From a virus (Duplodnaviria; Heunggongvirae; Uroviricota; Caudoviricetes), in the IMG/VR virus record IMGVR_UViG_2563366881_000002, positions 1 to 43,852 of that record: 43,852 nt of DNA; one strand, given 5' to 3'. Shown piece by piece: positions 14,224 through 39,516 of this stretch. Both the position numbers and the translations under genes were made by a program. The first letter of the stretch is position 1; every line of letters starts with the position of its first letter. The notes under the pieces are model-generated. The model saw nothing but the letters and a program-made list of their open reading frames with translations. It had not been told where the DNA came from and ran no database searches.

Positions 14224-14418
14224 ATGCTAAAACAGCAAGATATGACAGAAACGGCGAAAGTTGTTTTTAATGAATTAAACGGCAAACCGGCAACAGTCGG
14301 GGAGATAGCACAAAACACATACCTTTCACGCGAACGCTGTCAGTTAATACTGACCCAGCTGGTTATGGCGGGGCTGGCAGATTACCAGTTCGGCTGTTAC
14401 AGACGCCTTCAGCAATGA
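14224..14418 (+). CDS. small hypothetical protein (64 aa), possible winged-helix DNA-binding protein
   Basis: Short ORF upstream of methyltransferase; helix-turn-helix-like ..ATVGEIAQNTYLSRERCQLILTQL.. Confidence 0.4.
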   Translation: MLKQQDMTETAKVVFNELNGKPATVGEIAQNTYLSRERCQLILTQLVMAGLADYQFGCYRRLQQ

Positions 14419-14567
14419 AGGGCTTTTAATTTGTGAAAATGGGCGGCTGGTGGGTGTTGGTAGCACCTGCCAGCCATTCGCTCATGCTTACTGGTCACAA
14501 GCGAACCATGGCCCACTGCTTTAGCGCAAAAGCAGAGTGAGCCTACCAGAGTTACGCTTACTGATCC

Positions 14568-15629
14568 ATGAAAAACACTGTAAAAATAAACAGTATTGAT
14601 TTAATCAACGCTGATTGCCTGCATTTTATTCAGTCCCTGCCTGATGATTCCATTGACCTGATTGTTACCGATCCGCCTTACTTCAAGGTGAAACCCAACG
14701 GTTGGGACAATCAGTGGAAAGGGGACGAAGATTACCTTAAGTGGCTGGACCACTGTCTGGCCCAGTTCTGGCGGGTGTTGAAACCTGCCGGAAGCCTTTA
14801 CCTGTTCTGTGGGCATCGCCTGGCATCTGATATTGAGATCATGATGCGTGAACGTTTCAACGTGCTTAACCATATCATCTGGGCGAAGCCGTCCGGACGT
14901 TGGAATGGGTGTAATAAAGAAAGTCTGCGCGCATATTTTCCTGCCACAGAGCGCGTTCTGTTTGCTGAACATTACCGGGGGCCATATCGCGGCAAAAGTG
15001 ACGGCTATGTGGCAAAAGAAAGGGAACTCAAACAGCACATAATGGCACCGCTGATATCGTATTTCAGGGATGCTCGTGCCGAACTGGGTATAACGGCAAA
15101 ACAAATTGCCGAAGCCACAGGTAAGAAAAATATGGTTTCCCACTGGTTTGGTGCCAGTCAGTGGCAGTTGCCGAATGAGGCTGACTACCGGAAGTTACAG
15201 GCACTGTTTTCCCGTATAGCGGCAGAGAAGTTTCAGGAACAACAACTGGAACAACCACACCACCAGTTGGTGGCATCTTATGATTCACTGAATCGCAAAT
15301 ATTCTGAATTGCTGGATGAGTTTAAATCTCTCCGGCGCTATTTCTCCGTATCAGTCTCCGTGCCTTATACCGATGTCTGGATGCATAAACCCGTTCAGTT
15401 CTACCCGGGTAAACATCCGTGTGAGAAACCGGCGGATATGCTCAGGCAAATAATCAATGCCAGTAGTCGACCCGGCGATCTGGTTGCTGATTTCTTTATG
15501 GGATCCGGTTCCACAATAAAAGCAGCAATGGCGCTGGGGCGTCGGGCGTTAGGTGTTGAGCTTGAGACAGAGCGGTTTAATCAGACCATCCAGGAAATCA
15601 GTATGTTATCAGCAAATACAATTTTGTGA
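14568..15629 (+). CDS. DNA methyltransferase, beta-class amino-MTase (N6-adenine or N4-cytosine), orphan
   Basis: Motif IV DPPY (..LIVTDPPYF..) near N-terminus and motif I FxGxG (..FFMGSGST..) near C-terminus; no adjacent restriction endonuclease recognised. Confidence 0.85.
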   Translation: MKNTVKINSIDLINADCLHFIQSLPDDSIDLIVTDPPYFKVKPNGWDNQWKGDEDYLKWLDHCLAQFWRVLKPAGSLYLFCGHRLASDIEIMMRERFNVLNHIIWAKPSGRWNGCNKESLRAYFPATERVLFAEHYRGPYRGKSDGYVAKERELKQHIMAPLISYFRDARAELGITAKQIAEATGKKNMVSHWFGASQWQLPNEADYRKLQALFSRIAAEKFQEQQLEQPHHQLVASYDSLNRKYSELLDEFKSLRRYFSVSVSVPYTDVWMHKPVQFYPGKHPCEKPADMLRQIINASSRPGDLVADFFMGSGSTIKAAMALGRRALGVELETERFNQTIQEISMLSANTIL

Positions 15630-20707: not shown

Positions 20708-21227
20708 ATGGAAGTCAACAAAAAGCAGCTGGCTGACATTTTCGGTGCGAGTATCCGTACCATTCAGAACTGGCAGGAACAGGGAATGCCCGTTCTGCGA
20801 GGCGGTGGCAAGGGTAATGAGGTGCTTTATGATTCTGCCGCCGTCATAAAATGGTATGCCGAAAGGGATGCTGAAATTGAGAACGAAAAGCTGCGCCGGG
20901 AAGTTGAAGAACTGCGGCAGGCCAGCGAGACAGATCTCCAGCCAGGGACTATTGAGTACGAACGCCATCGACTTACGCGTGCGCAGGCCGACGCACAGGA
21001 GCTGAAAAATGCCAGAGACTCCGCTGAAGTGGTGGAAACCGCATTCTGTACTTTCGTGCTGTCGCGGATCGCAGGTGAAATTGCCAGTATTCTCGACGGG
21101 ATCCCCCTGTCGGTGCAGCGGCGTTTTCCGGAACTGGAAAACCGACATGTTGATTTCCTGAAACGGGATATCATCAAAGCCATGAACAAAGCAGCCGCGC
21201 TGGATGAACTGATACCGGGGTTGCTGA

Positions 21228-30647: not shown

Positions 30648-31063
30648 GTTTTGCCCTGAAACTGGCGCGTGAGATGGGGCGACCCGACTGGCGTGCCATG
30701 CTTGCCGGGATGTCATCCACGGAGTATGCCGACTGGCACCGCTTTTACAGTACCCATTATTTTCATGATGTTCTGCTGGATATGCACTTTTCCGGGCTGA
30801 CGTACACCGTGCTCAGCCTGTTTTTCAGCGATCCGGATATGCATCCGCTGGATTTCAGTTTGCTGAACCGGCGTGAGGCTGACGAAGAGCCTGAAGATGA
30901 TGTGCTGATGCAGAAAGCGGCAGGGCTTGCCGGAGGCGTCCGTTTTGGCCCGGACGGGAATGAAGTTATCCCCGCTTCCCCGGATGTGGCGGACATGACG
31001 GAGGATGACGTAATGCTGATGACAGTATCAGAAGGGATCGCAGGAGGAGTCCGGTATGGCTGA
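30225..31063 (+). CDS. T: tail assembly chaperone G-T fusion via -1 frameshift (T frame 30629-31063)
   Basis: T reading frame (..FDGELSFALKLAREMGRPDWRAMLAGMSSTEY..) continues in -1 frame from slippery site, as in lambda. Confidence 0.85.
30623..30629 (+). promoter_or_regulatory. -1 programmed ribosomal frameshift slippery site G GGA AAG (G to G-T)
   Basis: Heptamer GGGAAAG in X XXY YYZ register of G, 18 nt before G stop; T frame opens in -1 frame. Confidence 0.8.
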
Positions 31064-33635
31064 ACCGGTAGGCGATCTGGTCGTTGATTTAAGTCTGGAT
31101 GCGGCCAGATTTGACGAGCAGATGGCCAGAGTCAGGCGTCATTTTTCCGGTACGGAAACTGATGCGAAAAAAACAGCGGCAGTCGTTGAACAGTCGCTGA
31201 GCCGACAGGCGCTGGCTGCACAGAAAGCGGGGATTTCCGTCGGGCAGTATAAAGCCGCCATGCGTATGCTGCCTGCACAGTTCACCGACGTGGCCACGCA
31301 GCTTGCAGGCGGGCAAAGTCCGTGGCTGATCCTGCTGCAACAGGGTGGTCAGGTTAAGGACTCCTTCGGCGGGATGATCCCCATGTTCAGGGGGCTTGCC
31401 GGTGCGATCACCCTGCCGATGGTGGGGGCCACCTCGCTGGCGGTGGCGACCGGTGCGCTGGCGTATGCCTGGTATCAGGGCAACTCAACCCTGTCCGATT
31501 TCAACAAAACGCTGGTCCTTTCCGGCAATCAGGCGGGACTGACGGCAGATCGTATGCTGGTCCTGTCCAGAGCCGGGCAGGCGGCAGGGCTGACGTTTAA
31601 CCAGACCAGCGAGTCACTCAGCGCACTGGTTAAGGCGGGGGTAAGCGGTGAGGCTCAGATTGCGTCCATCAGCCAGAGTGTGGCGCGTTTCTCCTCTGCA
31701 TCCGGCGTGGAGGTGGACAAGGTCGCTGAAGCCTTCGGGAAGCTGACCACTGACCCGACGTCTGGGTTGACGGCGATGGCGCGCCAGTTCCATAACGTGA
31801 CGGCGGAGCAGATTGCGTATGTTGCTCAGTTGCAGCGTTCCGGAGATGAAGCCGGGGCATTGCAGGCGGCGAACGAGGCCGCAACGAAAGGGTTTGATGA
31901 CCAGACCCGCCGCCTGAAAGATAACATGGGCACGCTGGAGACCTGGGCAGACAGGACTGCACGGGCATTCAAATCCATGTGGGATGCGGTGCTGGATATT
32001 GGTCGCCCGGACTCCTCTGCAGATATGCTCGCCAAAGCTGAAAAGGCTTTTGATGAGGCGGACAAAAAATGGCAGTGGTATCAGAGCCGGAGCCACCGGC
32101 GCGGTAAAACGTCAGCATTTCTTGCCAATCTCCGGGGGGCATGGGAGGAGAGAGAGAATGCGCAACTTGGGCTTTCAGCCGCCACGTTGCAGGCCGATCT
32201 TGAAAAGGCCAGAGAGATGGCAGCAAAGGACTGGGCCGAGTCTGAGGCATCACGGCTGAAATATACCGAAGAGGCGCAGAAGGCTTACGAACGCCTGCAG
32301 ACGCCGCTGGAGAAATATACCGCCCGTCAGGAGGAACTGAATAAGGCACTGAAAGACGGAAAAATCCTGCAGGCAGATTACAACACGCTGATGGCGGCGG
32401 CGAAAAAGGACTATGAAGCGACGCTGAAAAAGCCGAAGCAGTCCGGCGTGAAAGTGTCTGCGGGCGATCGTCAGGAAGACAGTGCTCATGCTGCCCTGCT
32501 GACGCTTCAGGCTGAACTCCGGACGCTGGAGAAGCATGCCGGAGCAAATGAGAAAATCAGCCAGCAGCGCCGGGATTTGTGGAAGGCGGAGAGTCAGTTC
32601 GCGGTACTGGAGGAGGCGGCGCAACGTCGCCAGCTGTCCGCACAGGAGAAATCCCTGCTGGCGCATAAAGATGAGACGCTGGAGTACAAACGCCAGCTGG
32701 CTGCACTTGGCGACAAGGTTACGTATCAGGAGCGCCTGAACGCGCTGGCGCAGCAGGCGGATAAATTCGCACAGCAGCAACGGGCAAAACGGGCCGCCAT
32801 TGATGCGAAAAGCCGGGGGCTGACTGACCGGCAGGCAGCGCGGGAAGCCACGGAACAGCGCCTGAAGGAACAGTATGGCGATAATCCGCTGGCGCTGAAT
32901 AACGTCATGTCAGAGCAGAAAAAGACCTGGGCGGCTGAAGACCAGCTTCGCGGGAGCTGGATGGCAGGCCTGACGTCCGGCTGGAGTGAGTGGGAAGAGA
33001 GCGCCACGGACAGTATGTCGCAGGTAAAAAGTGCAGCCACGCAGACCTTTGATGGTATTGCACAGAATATGGCGGCGATGCTGACCGGCAGTGAGCAGAA
33101 CTGGCGCAGCTTCACCCGTTCCGTGCTGTCCATGATGACAGAAATTCTGCTTAAGCAGGCAATGGTGGGGATTGTCGGGAGTATCGGCAGCGCCATTGGC
33201 GGGGCTGTTGGTGGCGGCGCATCCGCGTCAGGCGGTACAGCCATTCAGGCCGCTGCGGCGAAATTCCATTTTGCAACCGGAGGATTTACGGGAACCGGCG
33301 GCAAATATGAGCCAGCGGGGATTGTTCACCGTGGTGAATTTGTCTTCACAAAGGAGGCAACCAGCCGGATTGGCGTGGGGAATCTCTACCGGCTGATGCG
33401 CGGCTATGCCACCGGTGGTTATGTCGGTACACCGGGCAGTCTGGCTGACAGCCGATCGCAGGCGTCCGGGACGTTTGAGCAGAATAACCATGTGGTGATT
33501 AACAACGACGGCACGAACGGGCAGATAGGTCCGGCTGCTCTGAAGGCGGTGTATGACATGGCCCGCAAGGGTGCCCGTGATGAAATTCAGACACAGATGC
33601 GTGATGGTGGACTGTTCTCCGGAGGTGGACGATGA
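31056..33635 (+). CDS. H: tail tape measure protein H
   Basis: 859 aa, lambda gpH-like (6 aa longer than lambda H by recalled length). Confidence 0.95.
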   Translation: MAEPVGDLVVDLSLDAARFDEQMARVRRHFSGTETDAKKTAAVVEQSLSRQALAAQKAGISVGQYKAAMRMLPAQFTDVATQLAGGQSPWLILLQQGGQVKDSFGGMIPMFRGLAGAITLPMVGATSLAVATGALAYAWYQGNSTLSDFNKTLVLSGNQAGLTADRMLVLSRAGQAAGLTFNQTSESLSALVKAGVSGEAQIASISQSVARFSSASGVEVDKVAEAFGKLTTDPTSGLTAMARQFHNVTAEQIAYVAQLQRSGDEAGALQAANEAATKGFDDQTRRLKDNMGTLETWADRTARAFKSMWDAVLDIGRPDSSADMLAKAEKAFDEADKKWQWYQSRSHRRGKTSAFLANLRGAWEERENAQLGLSAATLQADLEKAREMAAKDWAESEASRLKYTEEAQKAYERLQTPLEKYTARQEELNKALKDGKILQADYNTLMAAAKKDYEATLKKPKQSGVKVSAGDRQEDSAHAALLTLQAELRTLEKHAGANEKISQQRRDLWKAESQFAVLEEAAQRRQLSAQEKSLLAHKDETLEYKRQLAALGDKVTYQERLNALAQQADKFAQQQRAKRAAIDAKSRGLTDRQAAREATEQRLKEQYGDNPLALNNVMSEQKKTWAAEDQLRGSWMAGLTSGWSEWEESATDSMSQVKSAATQTFDGIAQNMAAMLTGSEQNWRSFTRSVLSMMTEILLKQAMVGIVGSIGSAIGGAVGGGASASGGTAIQAAAAKFHFATGGFTGTGGKYEPAGIVHRGEFVFTKEATSRIGVGNLYRLMRGYATGGYVGTPGSLADSRSQASGTFEQNNHVVINNDGTNGQIGPAALKAVYDMARKGARDEIQTQMRDGGLFSGGGR

Positions 33636-33961
33636 AAACCTTCCGCTGGAAAGTGAAACCCGGTATGGATGTGGCTTCGGCCCCTTCTGTAAGAAAGGTG
33701 CGCTTTGGTGATGGCTATTCCCAGCGAGCGCCTGCCGGGCTGAATGCCAACCTGAAAACGTACAGCGTGACGCTTTCTGTCCCCCGTTGGGAGGCCACGG
33801 CGCTGGAGTCGTTTCTGGAAGAGCACGGGGGCTGGAAAGCCTTTCTGTGGACGCCGCCTTATGAGTGGCGGCAGATAAAGGTGACTTGCGCAAAATGGTC
33901 GTCGCGGGTCAGTATGCTGCGTGTTGAGTTCAGCGCAGAGTTTGAACAGGTGGTGAACTGA
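33632..33961 (+). CDS. M: tail tip protein M
   Basis: 109 aa, lambda M. Confidence 0.9.
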   Translation: MKTFRWKVKPGMDVASAPSVRKVRFGDGYSQRAPAGLNANLKTYSVTLSVPRWEATALESFLEEHGGWKAFLWTPPYEWRQIKVTCAKWSSRVSMLRVEFSAEFEQVVN

Positions 33962-34659
33962 TGCAGGATATCCGACAGGAAACACTGAATGAATGCACCC
34001 GTGCGGAGCAGTCGGCCAGCGTGGTGCTCTGGGAAATCGACCTGACAGAGGTCGGTGGAGAACGTTATTTTTTCTGTAATGAGCAGAACGATAAAGGTGA
34101 GCCGGTCACCTGGCAGGGGCGACAGTATCAGGCGTATCCCATTCAGGGGACGGGATTTGAACTGAACGGCAAAGGCAGTGCTGCCCGTCCGACACTGACG
34201 GTTTCTAACCTGCACGGCATGGTCACCGGGATGGCGGAAGATCTGCAGAGTCTGGTCGGCGGAACGGTGGTCCGGCGTAAGGTTTACGCCCGTTTTCTGG
34301 ATGCGGTGAACTTCGTCAACGGAAACAGTGACGCCGATCCGGAGCAGGAGGTGATCAGCCGCTGGCGCATTGAGCAGTGCAGCGAACTGAGCGCGGTGAG
34401 TGCCTCTTTTGTACTGTCCACGCCGACGGAAACGGACGGCGCTGTTTTTCCGGGACGTATCATGCTGGCCAACACCTGCACCTGGACCTATCGCGGCGAT
34501 GAGTGCGGTTATCACGGTCCGGCGGTCGCGGATGAATATGACCAGCCAACGTTCGATATCACGAAGGATAAATGCAGCAAATGCCTGAGTGGCTGTAAGT
34601 TTCGCAATAACGTCGGCAACTTTGGCGGCTTCCTTTCCATTAACAAACTTTCGCAGTAA
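33961..34659 (+). CDS. L: tail tip protein L
   Basis: 232 aa, lambda L (C-terminal Cys cluster CSKCLSGC). Confidence 0.9.
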   Translation: MQDIRQETLNECTRAEQSASVVLWEIDLTEVGGERYFFCNEQNDKGEPVTWQGRQYQAYPIQGTGFELNGKGSAARPTLTVSNLHGMVTGMAEDLQSLVGGTVVRRKVYARFLDAVNFVNGNSDADPEQEVISRWRIEQCSELSAVSASFVLSTPTETDGAVFPGRIMLANTCTWTYRGDECGYHGPAVADEYDQPTFDITKDKCSKCLSGCKFRNNVGNFGGFLSINKLSQ

Positions 34660-34807
34660 TCCCATGACAGAGACAGAATCAGCGATTCTGGCGCACGCCC
34701 GGCGATGTGCGCCAGCGGAGTCGTGCGGCTTCGTGGTGAGAACGCCGGAGGGGGAAAGATATTTTCCCTGCGTGAATATTTCCGGTGAGCCGGAGGATTA
34801 TTTCCGG

Positions 34808-35407
34808 ATGGCTCCGGAGGACTGGCTGCAGGCAGAAATGCAGGGTGAGATTGTGGCGCTGGTCCACAGCCACCCCGGTGGTCTGCCCTGGCTGAGTGAG
34901 GCCGACCGGCGGCTGCAGGTGCAGAGTGATTTGCCGTGGTGGCTGGTCTGCCGGGGGACGATTCATAAGTTCCGCTGTGTGCCGCATCTCACCGGGCGGC
35001 GCTTTGAGCACGGGGTGACGGACTGTTACACGCTGTTCCGGGATGCTTATCATCTGGCGGGGATTGAGATGCCGGACTTTCATCGTGAGGATGACTGGTG
35101 GCGTAACGGCCAGAATCTCTATCTGGATAATCTGGAGGCCACAGGGCTGTATCAGGTGCCGTTGTCATCAGCACAACCGGGCGATGTGCTGCTGTGCTGT
35201 TTTGGTTCATCGGTGCCGAATCATGCCGCCATTTACTGTGGTGATGGCGAGCTGCTGCACCATATTCCTGAACAACTGAGCAAACGAGAGAGGTATACCG
35301 ACAAATGGCAGCGACGCACACACTCCCTCTGGCGTCACCGGGCATGGCGCGCATCTGCCTTTACGGGGATTTGCAACGATTTGGCCGCCGCATCGACCTT
35401 CGTGTGA
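34808..35407 (+). CDS. K: tail tip assembly protein K (JAB/MPN + NlpC/P60-like)
   Basis: Start chosen to match lambda K (199 aa; SD GGAGGA); HSHPGG...S..D JAMM-like motif. The ORF is open in frame upstream to an ATG at 34664 (MTETES...), so true start may be earlier. Confidence 0.85.
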   Translation: MAPEDWLQAEMQGEIVALVHSHPGGLPWLSEADRRLQVQSDLPWWLVCRGTIHKFRCVPHLTGRRFEHGVTDCYTLFRDAYHLAGIEMPDFHREDDWWRNGQNLYLDNLEATGLYQVPLSSAQPGDVLLCCFGSSVPNHAAIYCGDGELLHHIPEQLSKRERYTDKWQRRTHSLWRHRAWRASAFTGICNDLAAASTFV

Positions 35408-35976
35408 AAACGGGGGCTGAAGCCATCCGCGCACTGGCCACACAGCTCCCGGCGTTTCGTCAGAAACTGAGCGACGGCTGGTATCAGGTACGGATTGCCG
35501 GGCGGGACGTCAGCACGTCCGGGTTAACGGCGCAGTTACATGAGACTCTGCCTGATGGCGCTGTGATTCATATTGTTCCCAGAGTCGCCGGGGCCAAGTC
35601 AGGTGGCGTATTCCAGATTGTCCTGGGGGCTGCCGCCATTGCCGGATCATTCTTTACCGCCGGAGCCACCCTTGCAGCATGGGGGGCAGCCATTGGGGCC
35701 GGTGGTATGACCGGCATCCTGTTTTCTCTCGGTGCCAGTATGGTGCTCGGTGGTGTGGCGCAGATGCTGGCACCGAAAGCCAGAACTCCCCGTACACAGA
35801 CAACGGATAACGGCAAACAGAACACCTATTTCTCCTCACTGGATAACATGGTTGCCCAGGGCAATGTTCTGCCGGTTCTGTACGGTGAAATGCGCGTGGG
35901 GTCACGCGTGGTTTCTCAGGAAATCAGCACGGCAGACGAAGGGGATGGTGGGCAGGTTGTGGTGATTGGTCGCTGA
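35305..35976 (+). CDS. I: tail tip assembly protein I
   Basis: 223 aa, overlaps K 3' end as in lambda. Confidence 0.9.
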   Translation: MAATHTLPLASPGMARICLYGDLQRFGRRIDLRVKTGAEAIRALATQLPAFRQKLSDGWYQVRIAGRDVSTSGLTAQLHETLPDGAVIHIVPRVAGAKSGGVFQIVLGAAAIAGSFFTAGATLAAWGAAIGAGGMTGILFSLGASMVLGGVAQMLAPKARTPRTQTTDNGKQNTYFSSLDNMVAQGNVLPVLYGEMRVGSRVVSQEISTADEGDGGQVVVIGR

Positions 35977-36036: not shown

Positions 36037-39000
36037 ATGGGTAAAGGCAGCAGTAAGGGGCATACCCCGCGCGAAGCGAAGGACAACCTGAAATCATCCC
36101 AGATGCTGAGCGTGATAGACGCCATCAGTGAAGGGCCGGTTGAAGGTCCGGTGGACGGATTAAAAAGTGTGCTGCTGAACAGTACGCCGGTGCTGGACAG
36201 TGAGGGGAATACCAATATCTCCGGTGTCACGGTGGTTTTCCGGGCAGGTGAGCAGGAGCAGACACCGCCGGAGGGATTTGAATCCTCCGGCTCCGAGACG
36301 GTGCTGGGTACGGAAGTGAAGTACGACACGCCGATTACCCGGACCATCACGTCGGCAAACATCGACCGTCTGCGCTTTACCTTCGGTGTGCAGGCACTGG
36401 TGGAAACCACCTCAAAGGGTGACCGGAATCCGTCGGAAGTCCGCCTGCTGGTTCAGATACAGCGTAATGGTGGCTGGGTGACGGAAAAAGATATCACCAT
36501 TAAAGGCAAAACCACCTCGCAGTATCTGGCCTCGGTGGTGGTGGATAACCTGCCGCCGCGCCCGTTTAATATCCGGATGCGCAGGATGACGCCGGACAGC
36601 ACCACAGACCAGCTGCAGAACAAAACGCTCTGGTCGTCATACACCGAAATCATCGATGTGAAACAGTGCTACCCGAACACGGCACTGGTCGGCGTGCAGG
36701 TGGATTCGGAGCAGTTCGGCAGCCAGCAGGTGAGCCGTAATTATCATCTGCGCGGGCGTATTCTGCAGGTGCCGTCGAATTATAACCCGCAGACGCGGCA
36801 ATACAGCGGTATCTGGGACGGAACGTTTAAACCGGCATACAGCAACAACATGGCCTGGTGTCTGTGGGATATGCTGACCCACCCGCGCTACGGCATGGGG
36901 AAACGTCTTGGTGCGGCAGATGTGGATAAATGGGCGCTGTATGTCATCGGCCAGAATTGCGACCAGTCGGTGCCGGACGGCTTTGGCGGCACGGAGCCGC
37001 GCATCGCCTGTAATGCGTACCTGACCACACAGCGCAAGGCCTGGGATGTGCTCAGTGATTTCTGCTCGGCGATGCGCTGTATGCCGGTATGGAACGGGCA
37101 GACGCTGACGTTCGTGCAGGACCGACCGTCGGATAAGGTGTGGACCTATAACCGCAGTAATGTGGTGATGCCGGATGATGGCGCGCCGTTCCGCTACAGC
37201 TTCAGCGCCCTGAAGGACCGCCATAATGCCGTTGAGGTGAACTGGATTGACCCGGATAACGGCTGGGAGACGGCGACAGAGCTTGTGGAGGACACGCAGG
37301 CCATTGCCCGTTACGGTCGTAACGTCACGAAGATGGATGCCTTTGGCTGTACCAGTCGGGGGCAGGCACACCGCGCCGGGCTGTGGCTGATTAAAACAGA
37401 ACTGCTGGAAACGCAGACCGTGGATTTCAGCGTCGGCGCAGAAGGGCTTCGCCATGTACCGGGCGATGTCATTGAAATCTGCGATGATGACTATGCCGGT
37501 ATCAGCACCGGCGGGCGCGTGCTGGCGGTAAACAGCCAGACCCGGACGCTGACGCTCGACCGTGAAATCACGCTGCCATCCTCCGGTACCACGCTGATAA
37601 GCCTGGTTGACGGAAGTGGCAATCCGGTCAGCGTGGAGGTTCAGTCCGTCACCGACGGCGTGAAGGTGAAAGTGAGCCGTGTTCCTGACGGTGTTGCTGA
37701 ATACAGCGTGTGGGGGCTGAAGCTGCCGACGTTGCGCCAGCGCCTGTTCCGCTGCGTGAGTATCCGTGAGAACGACGGCGGCACGTATGCCATCACCGCC
37801 GTGCAGCATGTACCGGAAAAAGAAGCCATCGTGGATAACGGGGCGCACTTTGACGGCGACCTGAGCGGCACGGTGAATGGCGTCACGCCGCCCGCGGTGC
37901 AGCACCTGACCGCAGAAGTCACCGCAGACAGTGGGGAGTATCAGGTACTGGCGCGCTGGGACACGCCGAAGGTGGTGAAGGGGGTGAGCTTTATGCTTCG
38001 CCTGACCGTGGCAGCGGATGACGGCAGTGAGCGGCTGGTCAGCACGGCCCGGACGACGGAAACCACATACCGCTTCACGCAACTGGCGCTGGGGCGGTAC
38101 ACGCTGACAGTCCGGGCGGTAAATGCGTGGGGACAGCAGGGCGATCCGGCGTCGGTATCGTTCCGGATTGCCGCACCGGTAGCACCGTCGCGGATTGAGC
38201 TGACGCCGGGGTATTTTCAGATAACCGCCACGCCGCATCTTGCCGTTTATGACCCGACGGTACAGTTTGAGTTCTGGTTTTCGGAAAAGCGGATTACCGA
38301 TATCAGGCAGGTTGAAACCACAGCGCGCTACCTTGGCACGGGGCTGTACTGGATAGCCGCCAGTATCAATATCAAACCGGGCCATGATTATTACTTTTAT
38401 ATCCGCAGTGTGAACACCGTTGGCAAATCGGCATTCGTGGAGGCCGTCGGTCGGGCGAGCGATGATGCGGAAGGTTACCTGGATTTTTTCAAAGGCGAGA
38501 TAGGGAAAACCCATCTGGCTCAGGAGCTGTGGACGCAGATTGATAACGGTCAGCTTGCGCCTGACCTGGCTGAAATCAGGACGTCCATTACGAATGTCAG
38601 CAATGAAATCACGCAGACCGTCAATAAAAAACTGGAAGACCAGAGTGCGGCAATCCAGCAGATACAGAAAGTTCAGGTTGATACAAATAATAACCTGAAC
38701 AGCATGTGGGCCGTGAAACTGCAGCAGATGAAGGACGGACGCCTTTATATTGCGGGTATCGGAGCCGGTATTGAGAATACGCCAGCAGGTATGCAGAGTC
38801 AGGTGCTTCTGGCTGCTGACCGGATTGCGATGATTAATCCTGCGAATGGCAACACAAAGCCGATGTTTGTTGGTCAGGGCGATCAGATATTCATGAACGA
38901 CGTGTTCCTGAAACGCCTGACGGCTCCGACCATTACCAGCGGCGGTAATCCTCCGGCATTTTCCCTGACACCGGACGGGCGGCTGACGGCGAAAAATGCC

Positions 39001-39516
39001 GATATCAGCGGTAACGTGAATGCGAACTCCGGGACGCTCAACAACGTCACGATTAACGAGAACTGTCGGGTTCTGGGAAAATTGTCCGCCAACCAGATTG
39101 AAGGCGATCTCGTTAAAACAGTGGGCAAAGCTTTCCCCCGGGACTCCCGTGCACCGGAACGGTGGCCATCAGGGACCATCACCGTCAGGGTTTATGACGA
39201 TCAGCCGTTTGACCGGCAGATTGTTATTCCGGCGGTGGCATTCAGCGGCGCTAAACATGAGCGGGAGAATAACGATATTTATTCGTCATGCCGCCTGATA
39301 GTACGGAAAAACGGTGCTGAAATTTATAACCGTACCGCGCTGGATAATACGCTGATTTACAGTGGTGTTATTGATATGCCAGCTGGTCGCGGCCACATGA
39401 CGCTGGAGTTTTCGGTGTCATCATGGCTGGTAAATGACTGGTATCCCACAGCAAGTATCAGCGATTTGCTGGTTGTGGTGATGAAGAAAGCCACCGCAGG
39501 CATCAGTATTCGTTGA
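36037..39516 (+). CDS. J: central tail fibre / host specificity protein J
   Basis: 1159 aa, lambda gpJ-like throughout (27 aa longer than recalled lambda J). Confidence 0.95.

What the first reader, a model, noticed from the sequence alone, without database searches (positions are those of the whole stretch)
34664..34807. In-frame open reading frame upstream of the lambda-annotated K start
The K reading frame is open from an ATG at 34664 (MTETESAILAHARRCAPAESCGFVV...), 48 codons before the start that corresponds to the recalled lambda K coordinate (199 aa). The extension is protein-like and could supply N-terminal residues of the JAB/MPN domain, so the true K start may be upstream.
Basis: partly seen in the sequence, partly recalled or inferred. 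Interest (0 to 1): 0.2.

Follow-up and report, generated by a model that had tools for sequence, protein, structure and literature searches.

The report
True start of tail gene K
The phage tail-assembly gene K in this window really begins 48 codons upstream of the start copied from the classic lambda annotation; this is ordinary and already how most databases call it, and the short lambda version traces to one missing base in the 1982 reference sequence.

Summary
The K frame is open from ATG 34664, 4 nt after the stop of L, to TGA 35405-35407, giving 247 aa. ATG 34808, the counterpart of lambda's annotated start, is codon 49.

The 48 extra residues are the N-terminal half of a JAB/MPN metalloprotease domain.
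- They carry Glu19, the catalytic residue of the JAMM motif, and two invariant residues, G22 and N38.
- They evolve under purifying selection in the K frame.
- They fold with high confidence as helix 1 and strands 1-2 of the domain.
- Homologues of 32-60% identity align with them, and those genes also abut L.
- Met49 is Ile in most homologues.

The short call has two causes. A strong GGAGG sits 11 nt before ATG 34808, while ATG 34664 has no Shine-Dalgarno sequence. Lambda J02459/NC_001416 also lacks one G after position 14266, which breaks the upstream frame. Independent lambda-derived sequences (DE3, imm434, KT232076, LC730321, PV340536) have that G and encode a 247-aa K.

The 247-aa JAB + NlpC/P60 architecture is already the usual annotation, so this is correct but not new. 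The practical point is that the 199-aa RefSeq K is a truncated fragment that is still in use.

The parts
33961..34659 (+). Gene L (tail tip protein, 232 aa). Its TAA stop at 34657-34659 lies 4 nt before the K start.
   Evidence: ORF list; annotated as L in lambda, phage 21, PhiR70_1 and ev207.
34664..35407 (+). Gene K, full length: 247 aa plus stop. JAB/MPN domain followed by an NlpC/P60 domain.
   Evidence: Translation; Pfam; the same 744-nt CDS is annotated in OL657228, PV340577, NC_049949, LR595861 and PV340536.
34664..34807 (+). The finding itself: 48 codons upstream of the lambda-style start. They encode helix 3-15 and strands 21-27 and 30-36 of the JAB fold.
   Evidence: On its own this segment hits Prok-JAB profile positions 3-51 (24.3 bits, E 3e-5). 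pN/pS is 0.23 in the K frame against 1.56 and 2.22 in the other frames. AF2 pLDDT is 97-98.
34718..34720 (+). Codon for Glu19, the upstream glutamate of the JAMM motif (E...HxH-x7-S-xx-D).
   Evidence: Conserved in 53 of 54 homologues. Aligns with the NEACG motif of JAB protein 2kks. The motif definition is from PMC300881 (abstract).
34865..34906 (+). The rest of the JAMM motif, H68-S-H70-x7-S78-xx-D81. It lies downstream of the lambda-style start.
   Evidence: Read directly from the sequence. H68, H70 and D81 are invariant; S78 is S in 50 and T in 4 of 54.
34792..34796 (+). GGAGG Shine-Dalgarno-like motif 11 nt before ATG 34808. It is formed by the codons for E42-P43-E44 and lies within a predicted hairpin at 34779-34796.
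   Evidence: Duplex energy with the anti-SD is -9.5 kcal/mol, against +0.7 for ATG 34664. Hairpin. Annotated as the K ribosome-binding site in lambda imm434.
34808..34810 (+). Internal ATG (Met49), the start that corresponds to lambda's annotated 199-aa K.
   Evidence: Met in only 10 of 54 homologues and Ile in 36.
34994..35335 (+). NlpC/P60 (C40) papain-like peptidase domain, residues 111-224, with C121, H187 and H199.
   Evidence: Pfam PF00877, 49.2 bits against a cutoff of 23. C121 is conserved in 53 of 54; H187 and H199 are invariant.
35305..35976 (+). Gene I (223-aa form). It overlaps the 3' end of K by 103 nt in another frame.
   Evidence: ORF list; lambda annotation; strong SD at -9.3 kcal/mol.

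Best explanation
Gene K of this lambdoid phage starts at ATG 34664 and encodes a 247-aa, two-domain protein. Residues about 4-104 form a JAB/MPN (JAMM-type) metalloprotease domain and residues 111-224 form an NlpC/P60 cysteine peptidase domain. The 48 codons of the finding are an integral part of the gene. They encode the first helix and first two strands of the JAB fold and its catalytic glutamate, Glu19.

No Shine-Dalgarno sequence precedes ATG 34664, and it lies 4 nt after the stop codon of L. Initiation is therefore most likely by translational coupling, that is re-initiation by ribosomes terminating on L. This step is inferred, not shown.

The 199-aa K of the lambda reference is an annotation artefact with two causes.
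- J02459/NC_001416 lacks one G between positions 14266 and 14267 (GGAGGC^TATTTCC). This throws the upstream 45 codons out of frame.
- A fortuitous GGAGG 11 nt before Met49 makes the internal ATG look like a good start.

Other lambda sequences carry the G and encode a 247-aa K.
For: Shown by tool results:
1. The ORF and its coordinates.
2. Domain completeness only with the extension. The PDB JAB protein 2kks aligns from residue 7, including the PAESCG/PNEACG motif.
3. A search of 1.84 billion representatives found 2786 hits. Full-length relatives of 35-60% identity and 230-260 aa align from query residues about 2-12 to their own residues about 2-15.
4. In a 54-sequence alignment G22 and N38 are invariant; E19, C21 and F47 are each conserved in 53 of 54 and P17 in 50 of 54; Met49 is present in only 10 of 54.
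5. Among 77 distinct close relatives, variable sites in the extension fall 5/2/15 by codon position. pN/pS is 0.23 in frame against 1.56 and 2.22 out of frame.
6. The AF2 model has mean pLDDT 96.9, with the extension at 97-98 forming helix 3-15 and strands 21-27 and 30-36. Foldseek matches Pyrococcus JAMM1 5ld9 over 110 columns, TM 0.65 on the target, rmsd 2.8 A.
7. In four distant loci the K homologue overlaps or abuts the upstream gene by -4, -4, -1 or +1 nt. That gene is a called L homologue (PF05100) in three of them and a contig-end fragment in the fourth.
8. Over about 860 nt, KT232076, DE3, DN1 and HK630 are identical to J02459 except for the extra G.
9. Only J02459, its RefSeq copy, one UNVERIFIED engineered record and one record with RefSeq-identical coordinates carry the deletion form, 4 of 32 records at 99% identity or more. 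There are 0 matches in IMG/VR. No 100% match heads the ranking over 5426 complete E. coli genomes.
10. The G is present both in a lambda carrying the extra stf base (LC730321) and in lambdas whose stf site matches J02459 (DE3, imm434).
11. The corrected lambda K is 247 aa.
Against: - There is no direct protein-level evidence for the N-terminus. gpK was not detected in virions by mass spectrometry (PMC10721106).
- ATG 34664 has no SD (+0.7 kcal/mol), while ATG 34808 has a strong one (-9.5 kcal/mol). Some internal initiation therefore cannot be excluded.
- About a fifth of automated calls among close relatives use the 199-aa form. The 199-aa clusters P0059, P0061, P0062 and P0069 have about 11,000 members.
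- That the missing G in J02459 is a sequencing error rather than a private mutation of the DNA sequenced in 1982 is an inference. I could not examine an independent sequence of exactly lambda cI857 ind1 Sam7.
Confidence: 0.93

Rival explanations
1. Two products. Full-length 247-aa K starts at ATG 34664, and a 199-aa K' is initiated internally at ATG 34808 from the GGAGG site, as with nested in-frame pairs such as lambda C/Nu3.
For: A strong SD-like GGAGG lies 11 nt upstream of ATG 34808 (-9.5 kcal/mol). Met49 is kept in nearly all close lambda-like relatives. Curated records mark this site as the ribosome-binding site.
Against: - Met49 is Ile, Leu or Val in 43 of 54 diverse homologues and Leu in one close relative, L076, so an internal start is not a family feature.
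- The GGAGG is made of codons for E42-P43-E44 and sits in a predicted hairpin.
- The 11-nt spacing is longer than optimal (established knowledge).
- The product would begin in the middle of the JAB fold, lacking helix 1, strands 1-2 and Glu19, so it would probably be misfolded.
Confidence: 0.1
2. The lambda annotation is right. K starts at ATG 34808 (199 aa), and the upstream 144 nt is an untranslated spacer, or a separate small ORF, that is open by chance.
For: The legacy annotation in J02459/NC_001416 and records that copied it. The SD at the internal start. A 48-codon open stretch has roughly a 10% chance expectation by my own estimate.
Against: All of the conservation, selection, domain and structure evidence. 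In J02459 the gap arises only from a one-base omission that other lambda sequences do not share.
Confidence: 0.02
3. K starts still further upstream, at the in-frame GTG 34589 inside L, giving 272 aa.
For: The frame is open from 34589.
Against: There is no SD (+0.6 kcal/mol). The 25 extra codons overlap the conserved C-terminus of L in another frame. Homologues have only 0-13 residues, with one at 22, before the position of residue 7, and they start at or next to the upstream gene's stop. All curated records use the ATG.
Confidence: 0.01

Closest known systems
Lambda tail tip assembly protein K (gpK; TAPK of Iyer et al. 2006, PMC1779556)
   Same: The gene order M-L-K-I-J is the same. The window is 96.6% identical in DNA to lambda over 1201 nt. 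The C-terminal 199 aa are nearly identical, and the two-peptidase architecture of JAB plus NlpC/P60 matches that described for TAPK.
   Different: The reference records (AAA96551, NP_040598) give 199 aa because of the missing G at 14266. The window, and corrected lambda, give 247 aa. The L-K spacer is 4 nt here and 5 nt in lambda.
Prokaryotic JAB/JAMM deubiquitinase-like metalloproteases (Pfam PF14464; for example Pyrococcus furiosus JAMM1 5ld9 and DSY2949 2kks)
   Same: The full JAMM motif is present: E19, H68-x-H70, S78, D81. The MPN fold is predicted with TM 0.65 on 5ld9. The neighbouring gene I encodes a ubiquitin-like beta-grasp protein according to PMC1779556.
   Different: The domain is fused to a C-terminal NlpC/P60 domain and acts in phage tail assembly. 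Its substrate is unknown. Cleavage of gpI is a published prediction, not a demonstrated activity.
NlpC/P60 (C40) peptidases such as E. coli MepS (8xup)
   Same: Residues 111-224 match PF00877, and C121, H187 and H199 are conserved.
   Different: This domain lies outside the finding. Only this domain is recognised when the 199-aa form is analysed, as in PMC7291167.

Membership tests
Prok-JAB / JAMM metalloprotease (PF14464) | Profile HMM match above Pfam's gathering score, covering the whole domain | tested here: met
   The 247-aa form scores 53.5 bits (cutoff 25) over residues 4-104 and profile positions 4-112 of 114. The 199-aa form scores 23.3 bits, below the cutoff, and covers only the C-terminal half of the profile.
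Prok-JAB / JAMM metalloprotease (PF14464) | JAMM motif E-x(n)-H-x-H-x7-S-x2-D | tested here: met
   E19, H68-S-H70, S78 and D81 are read from the sequence. In 54 homologues E19 is conserved in 53, H68, H70 and D81 in all 54, and S78 is S or T in all 54. E19 lies inside the 48-codon extension.
Prok-JAB / JAMM metalloprotease (PF14464) | MPN fold | tested here: met
   The AF2 model has pLDDT 96.9. Foldseek hits 5ld9 (E 8.6e-5, TM on target 0.65, rmsd 2.8 A), 2kks, AMSH, Rpn11 and CSN5. This is a predicted structure, not a solved one.
Prok-JAB / JAMM metalloprotease (PF14464) | Zinc binding and (iso)peptidase activity | not testable with these tools
   This needs biochemistry. No report of K activity was found in the papers I could read.
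NlpC/P60 (PF00877) | HMM above cutoff and conserved Cys-His-His catalytic residues | tested here: met
   49.2 bits against a cutoff of 23. C121 is conserved in 53 of 54, and H187 and H199 in all 54.
Lambda-type tail tip assembly protein K | Position in the M-L-K-I-J tail tip gene block and close similarity to lambda K | tested here: met
   The window ORFs are M 33632-33961, L 33961-34659, K 34664-35407, I 35305-35976 and J 36037-39516. There is 96.6% DNA identity to lambda. The M-L-K(-I-J) order recurs in three of the four distant loci, as far as each contig extends.
Lambda-type tail tip assembly protein K | Required for tail assembly but absent from the virion | not testable with these tools
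   This comes from the literature only: PMC10721106 and PMC12617516.

The most novel reading that the evidence does not exclude
The most novel reading that the evidence does not exclude is that the lambda clade makes two K proteins from one frame. One is the full-length JAB + NlpC/P60 enzyme, coupled to L. The other is an internally initiated 199-aa form driven by the GGAGG at 34792-34796, with the shorter form having a separate role. A more sober variant, and I think a more likely one, is that K's JAB domain is an active JAMM protease whose activity needs Glu19 in the extension. That would finally make the 2006 prediction that K processes the ubiquitin-like gpI testable with a correct construct.
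Probability: 0.08. Interest if true: 0.4.

Novelty: already known. Interest (0 to 1): 0.2.

Why it matters
For this window it simply fixes the gene model. K is 247 aa, and there is no 148-nt gap between L and K.

The wider value is practical. The most widely used lambda reference records (J02459, NC_001416, NP_040598/AAA96551) still give a 199-aa K that lacks half of its JAB domain, including the catalytic glutamate. Recent work still analyses or expresses that fragment.
- PMC7291167 found only the peptidase domain in '199 residues'.
- PMC12236752 lists NP_040598 as the lambda gpK it used.

Anyone testing K's function, its proposed processing of the ubiquitin-like gpI, or its recognition by defence systems should use the 247-aa form.

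Tried and rejected
- Scanning genome contigs with the 54-sequence alignment failed because no stretch was conserved enough. I used exact look-ups of four distant homologues instead.
- A viral-contig scan with the single protein returned only relatives of 96-100% identity. These were useful for the substitution analysis but not for deep conservation.
- I found no paper that states the J02459 discrepancy. Searches for 'J02459 + 14266', 'NC_001416 + sequencing error + frameshift', 'LC730321' and '14266 + bacteriophage lambda' gave nothing relevant. PMC3945230 did not mention it.
- Casjens & Hendrix 2015 and the lambda ribosome-profiling paper (Liu et al. 2013) are not held. I therefore could not check for ribosome density upstream of the annotated start.
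- From memory only, unverified: a commercial supplier's lambda sequence notes list changes at positions 138 and 14266. This fits the two indels I found against LC730321.
- I considered a programmed frameshift in lambda to join the two J02459 frames. I rejected it because other lambda sequences simply have the extra G.
- I considered the GTG 34589 start and rejected it (see rivals).

Full report
**Observation**

The window carries a lambda-type tail tip block:
- M at 33632-33961
- L at 33961-34659
- K
- I at 35305-35976
- J at 36037-39516

The K frame contains an ATG at 34664, 4 nt after the TAA of L, and runs to TGA 35405-35407, giving 247 aa. The ATG that corresponds to lambda's annotated start (J02459 CDS 14276-14875, 199 aa) is at 34808, exactly 48 codons downstream. 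An open stretch of 48 codons is not in itself remarkable, so I tested whether it is coding.

**The extension is part of the gene**

- Domain completeness. Pfam places a complete Prok-JAB domain on residues 4-104 of the 247-aa form (profile positions 4-112 of 114, 53.5 bits, cutoff 25), followed by NlpC/P60 on residues 111-224. The 199-aa form keeps NlpC/P60 but only the C-terminal half of JAB, at 23.3 bits and below the cutoff. The 48 residues alone hit the N-terminal half of the profile (24.3 bits, E 3e-5).
- Catalytic motif. The solved JAB protein 2kks aligns from residue 7, matching PAESCG to PNEACG. The JAMM motif as defined in PMC300881 is E...HxH-x7-S-xx-D. Here it is E19, H68-S-H70, S78 and D81, and the glutamate lies inside the extension.
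- Deep conservation. A HMMER search of 1.84 billion representatives found 2786 relatives. The full-length ones of 35-60% identity and 230-260 aa align from query residues about 2-12 to their own residues about 2-15. In an alignment of 54 homologues of 32-81% identity, G22 and N38 are invariant. E19, C21 and F47 are each conserved in 53 of 54 and P17 in 50 of 54. Mean conservation of residues 7-48 (0.46) equals that of the rest of the JAB domain (0.47).
- The internal Met is not conserved. Met49 is present in only 10 of 54 homologues, and Ile in 36.
- Selection. Among 77 distinct close relatives, variable sites in the extension fall 5/2/15 on codon positions 1/2/3. Pooled pN/pS is 0.23 in the K frame and 1.56 and 2.22 in the other two frames.
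- Structure. An AlphaFold2 model built on the alignment has mean pLDDT 96.9. The extension, at 97-98, forms helix 3-15 and strands 21-27 and 30-36. Foldseek matches the N-terminal domain to Pyrococcus JAMM1 (5ld9; 110 columns, TM on target 0.65, rmsd 2.8 A), to 2kks, and to AMSH, Rpn11 and CSN5.
- Gene context. In four distant loci the K homologue overlaps or abuts the preceding gene by -4, -4, -1 or +1 nt. That gene is a called L homologue in three of the loci and a contig-end fragment in the fourth. No locus shows an L-K gap like the one annotated in lambda.

**Why lambda says 199 aa**

An ungapped comparison showed the upstream ORF out of frame in J02459. The alignment locates a single missing base, GGAGGC^TATTTCC, between 14266 and 14267 and 9 nt before the annotated ATG.

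Over about 860 nt spanning the end of L, K and the start of I, four other sequences are identical to J02459 except that they carry this G: lambda from K-12 CV601 (KT232076), DE3 (EU078592), DN1 and HK630. In J02459 the upstream ATG opens an ORF that reads 45 correct K codons and then shifts. With the G, lambda K is 247 aa, beginning MTQTESAILAHARRCAPAESCGFVVSTPEGERYFPCVNISGEPEAYFRMSPEDW....

The deletion form is almost confined to the reference record.
- Of 32 phage records at 99% identity or more to a 141-nt probe, only four match it 100%. These are J02459, its RefSeq copy NC_001416, an UNVERIFIED engineered record (OR474059) and OR974322. The last has RefSeq-identical coordinates and is from a chicken swab, so I infer a reference-guided assembly.
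- The deletion form has no exact match in IMG/VR.
- In 5426 complete E. coli genomes (8153 matching places), the top of the ranking is 99.3% over 142 nt, so no hit is 100%.

A whole-genome comparison of J02459 with LC730321 shows three indels: a G lost at 138, a G gained at 14266 and a C gained at 20832. From my own knowledge, the last is the known stf frameshift site and LC730321 has the Ur-lambda state. DE3 and lambda imm434 match J02459 at that stf site yet have the G at 14266. The G is therefore present in lambdas of both stf types. Its absence is private to the 1982 record, most likely a sequencing error. I could not find a paper that states this. The inference 'error rather than private mutation' remains unproven.

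The second cause is the translation signal. ATG 34664 has no Shine-Dalgarno complementarity (+0.7 kcal/mol). ATG 34808 is preceded at 11 nt by GGAGG (-9.5 kcal/mol). That motif is built from the codons for E42-P43-E44 and lies in a predicted hairpin at 34779-34796. This explains three things:
- why the original annotators chose that start once the upstream frame looked closed;
- why curated records with the G still copy the 199-aa call;
- why a minority of automated calls are 199 aa, with clusters totalling about 11,000 members against several tens of thousands at 247 aa.

**Mechanism**

Shown: K is a 247-aa JAB + NlpC/P60 protein whose JAB domain needs the extension.

Inferred:
- Initiation at ATG 34664 is by coupling to termination of L. 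The spacer is 4 nt, there is no SD, and the tight junction is conserved.
- The JAB domain is catalytically competent, since all motif residues are conserved.
- As predicted by Iyer et al. (PMC1779556), K may process the ubiquitin-like N-terminal domain of gpI. That last step is a published hypothesis and is untested here.
- Internal initiation at Met49 cannot be excluded, but it is unlikely to be functional.

**Comparison and novelty**

The 247-aa call and the two-domain architecture are already the norm.
- PGAP annotates it as 'C40 family peptidase'.
- The phage 21, PhiR70_1, ev207, Lambda_4C10 and PV340536 records use it.
- Precomputed Pfam architectures show both domains.
- Iyer et al. 2006 described this architecture.

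For this window the finding is therefore a correct but ordinary gene-start call. The by-product worth keeping is that lambda's reference K is truncated by a one-base omission. This still affects published analyses and constructs.

Noticed in passing
L101 (J02459) 14266/14267; the equivalent site in the window is 34797-34799: The lambda reference J02459/NC_001416 lacks one G that is present in other lambda-derived sequences and in all relatives. This splits K into a 45-codon orphan ORF and the annotated 199-aa CDS.
   Followed up: yes
L101 vs L100 (J02459 vs LC730321), whole genome: Besides the G at 14266, LC730321 differs from J02459 by loss of a G at 138, gain of a C at 20832 (the stf frameshift site; Ur-lambda type by my own knowledge) and 12 substitutions. 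Lambda imm434 also has its left-arm coordinates shifted by -1 before L, which is consistent with the same change at 138. Position 138 may be a second error in the reference.
   Followed up: partly
window 35305-35407 (K/I overlap): The start of gene I is annotated inconsistently between records: 223 aa (ATG, overlapping K by 103 nt), 201 aa (TTG) or 190 aa (GTG overlapping the K stop). In the window ATG 35305 has a strong SD (-9.3 kcal/mol), while the alternative starts ATG 35344 (a fourth in-frame candidate, not one of the annotated starts) and GTG 35404 have weak ones. The N-terminal ubiquitin-like fold described by Iyer et al. would need the upstream residues. The 223-aa form looks right, but I did not test it further.
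   Followed up: partly
window 34779-34796: A predicted hairpin, TTTCCGG-TGAG-CCGGAGG, contains the GGAGG that precedes the internal ATG 34808. It was flagged by the terminator-like scan but lies inside the coding sequence.
   Followed up: no
window 34657-34666: The L-K junction is TAATCCCATG here (4-nt spacer) and TAAATCCCATG in lambda and most close relatives (5-nt spacer). This is a 1-nt indel polymorphism in the coupling spacer (19 versus 60 of the loci compared).
   Followed up: partly
proteins P0022, P0029, P0042, P0047 (L-K) and P0016, P0034, P0078, P0092 (K-I): Database entries fuse K with L (PF05100) or with I (PF06805) in single predicted proteins. Most are single-member clusters, so they are probably frameshifted assemblies. 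Iyer et al. 2006 also mention K-I and I-J fusions in prophages.
   Followed up: no
window 31056-33635 and 36037-39516: The tape measure H is 859 aa (853 in lambda) and J is 1159 aa (1132 in lambda). The window is not lambda itself. The closest record for the K region is Escherichia phage PhiR70_1, at 99.3% identity.
   Followed up: no
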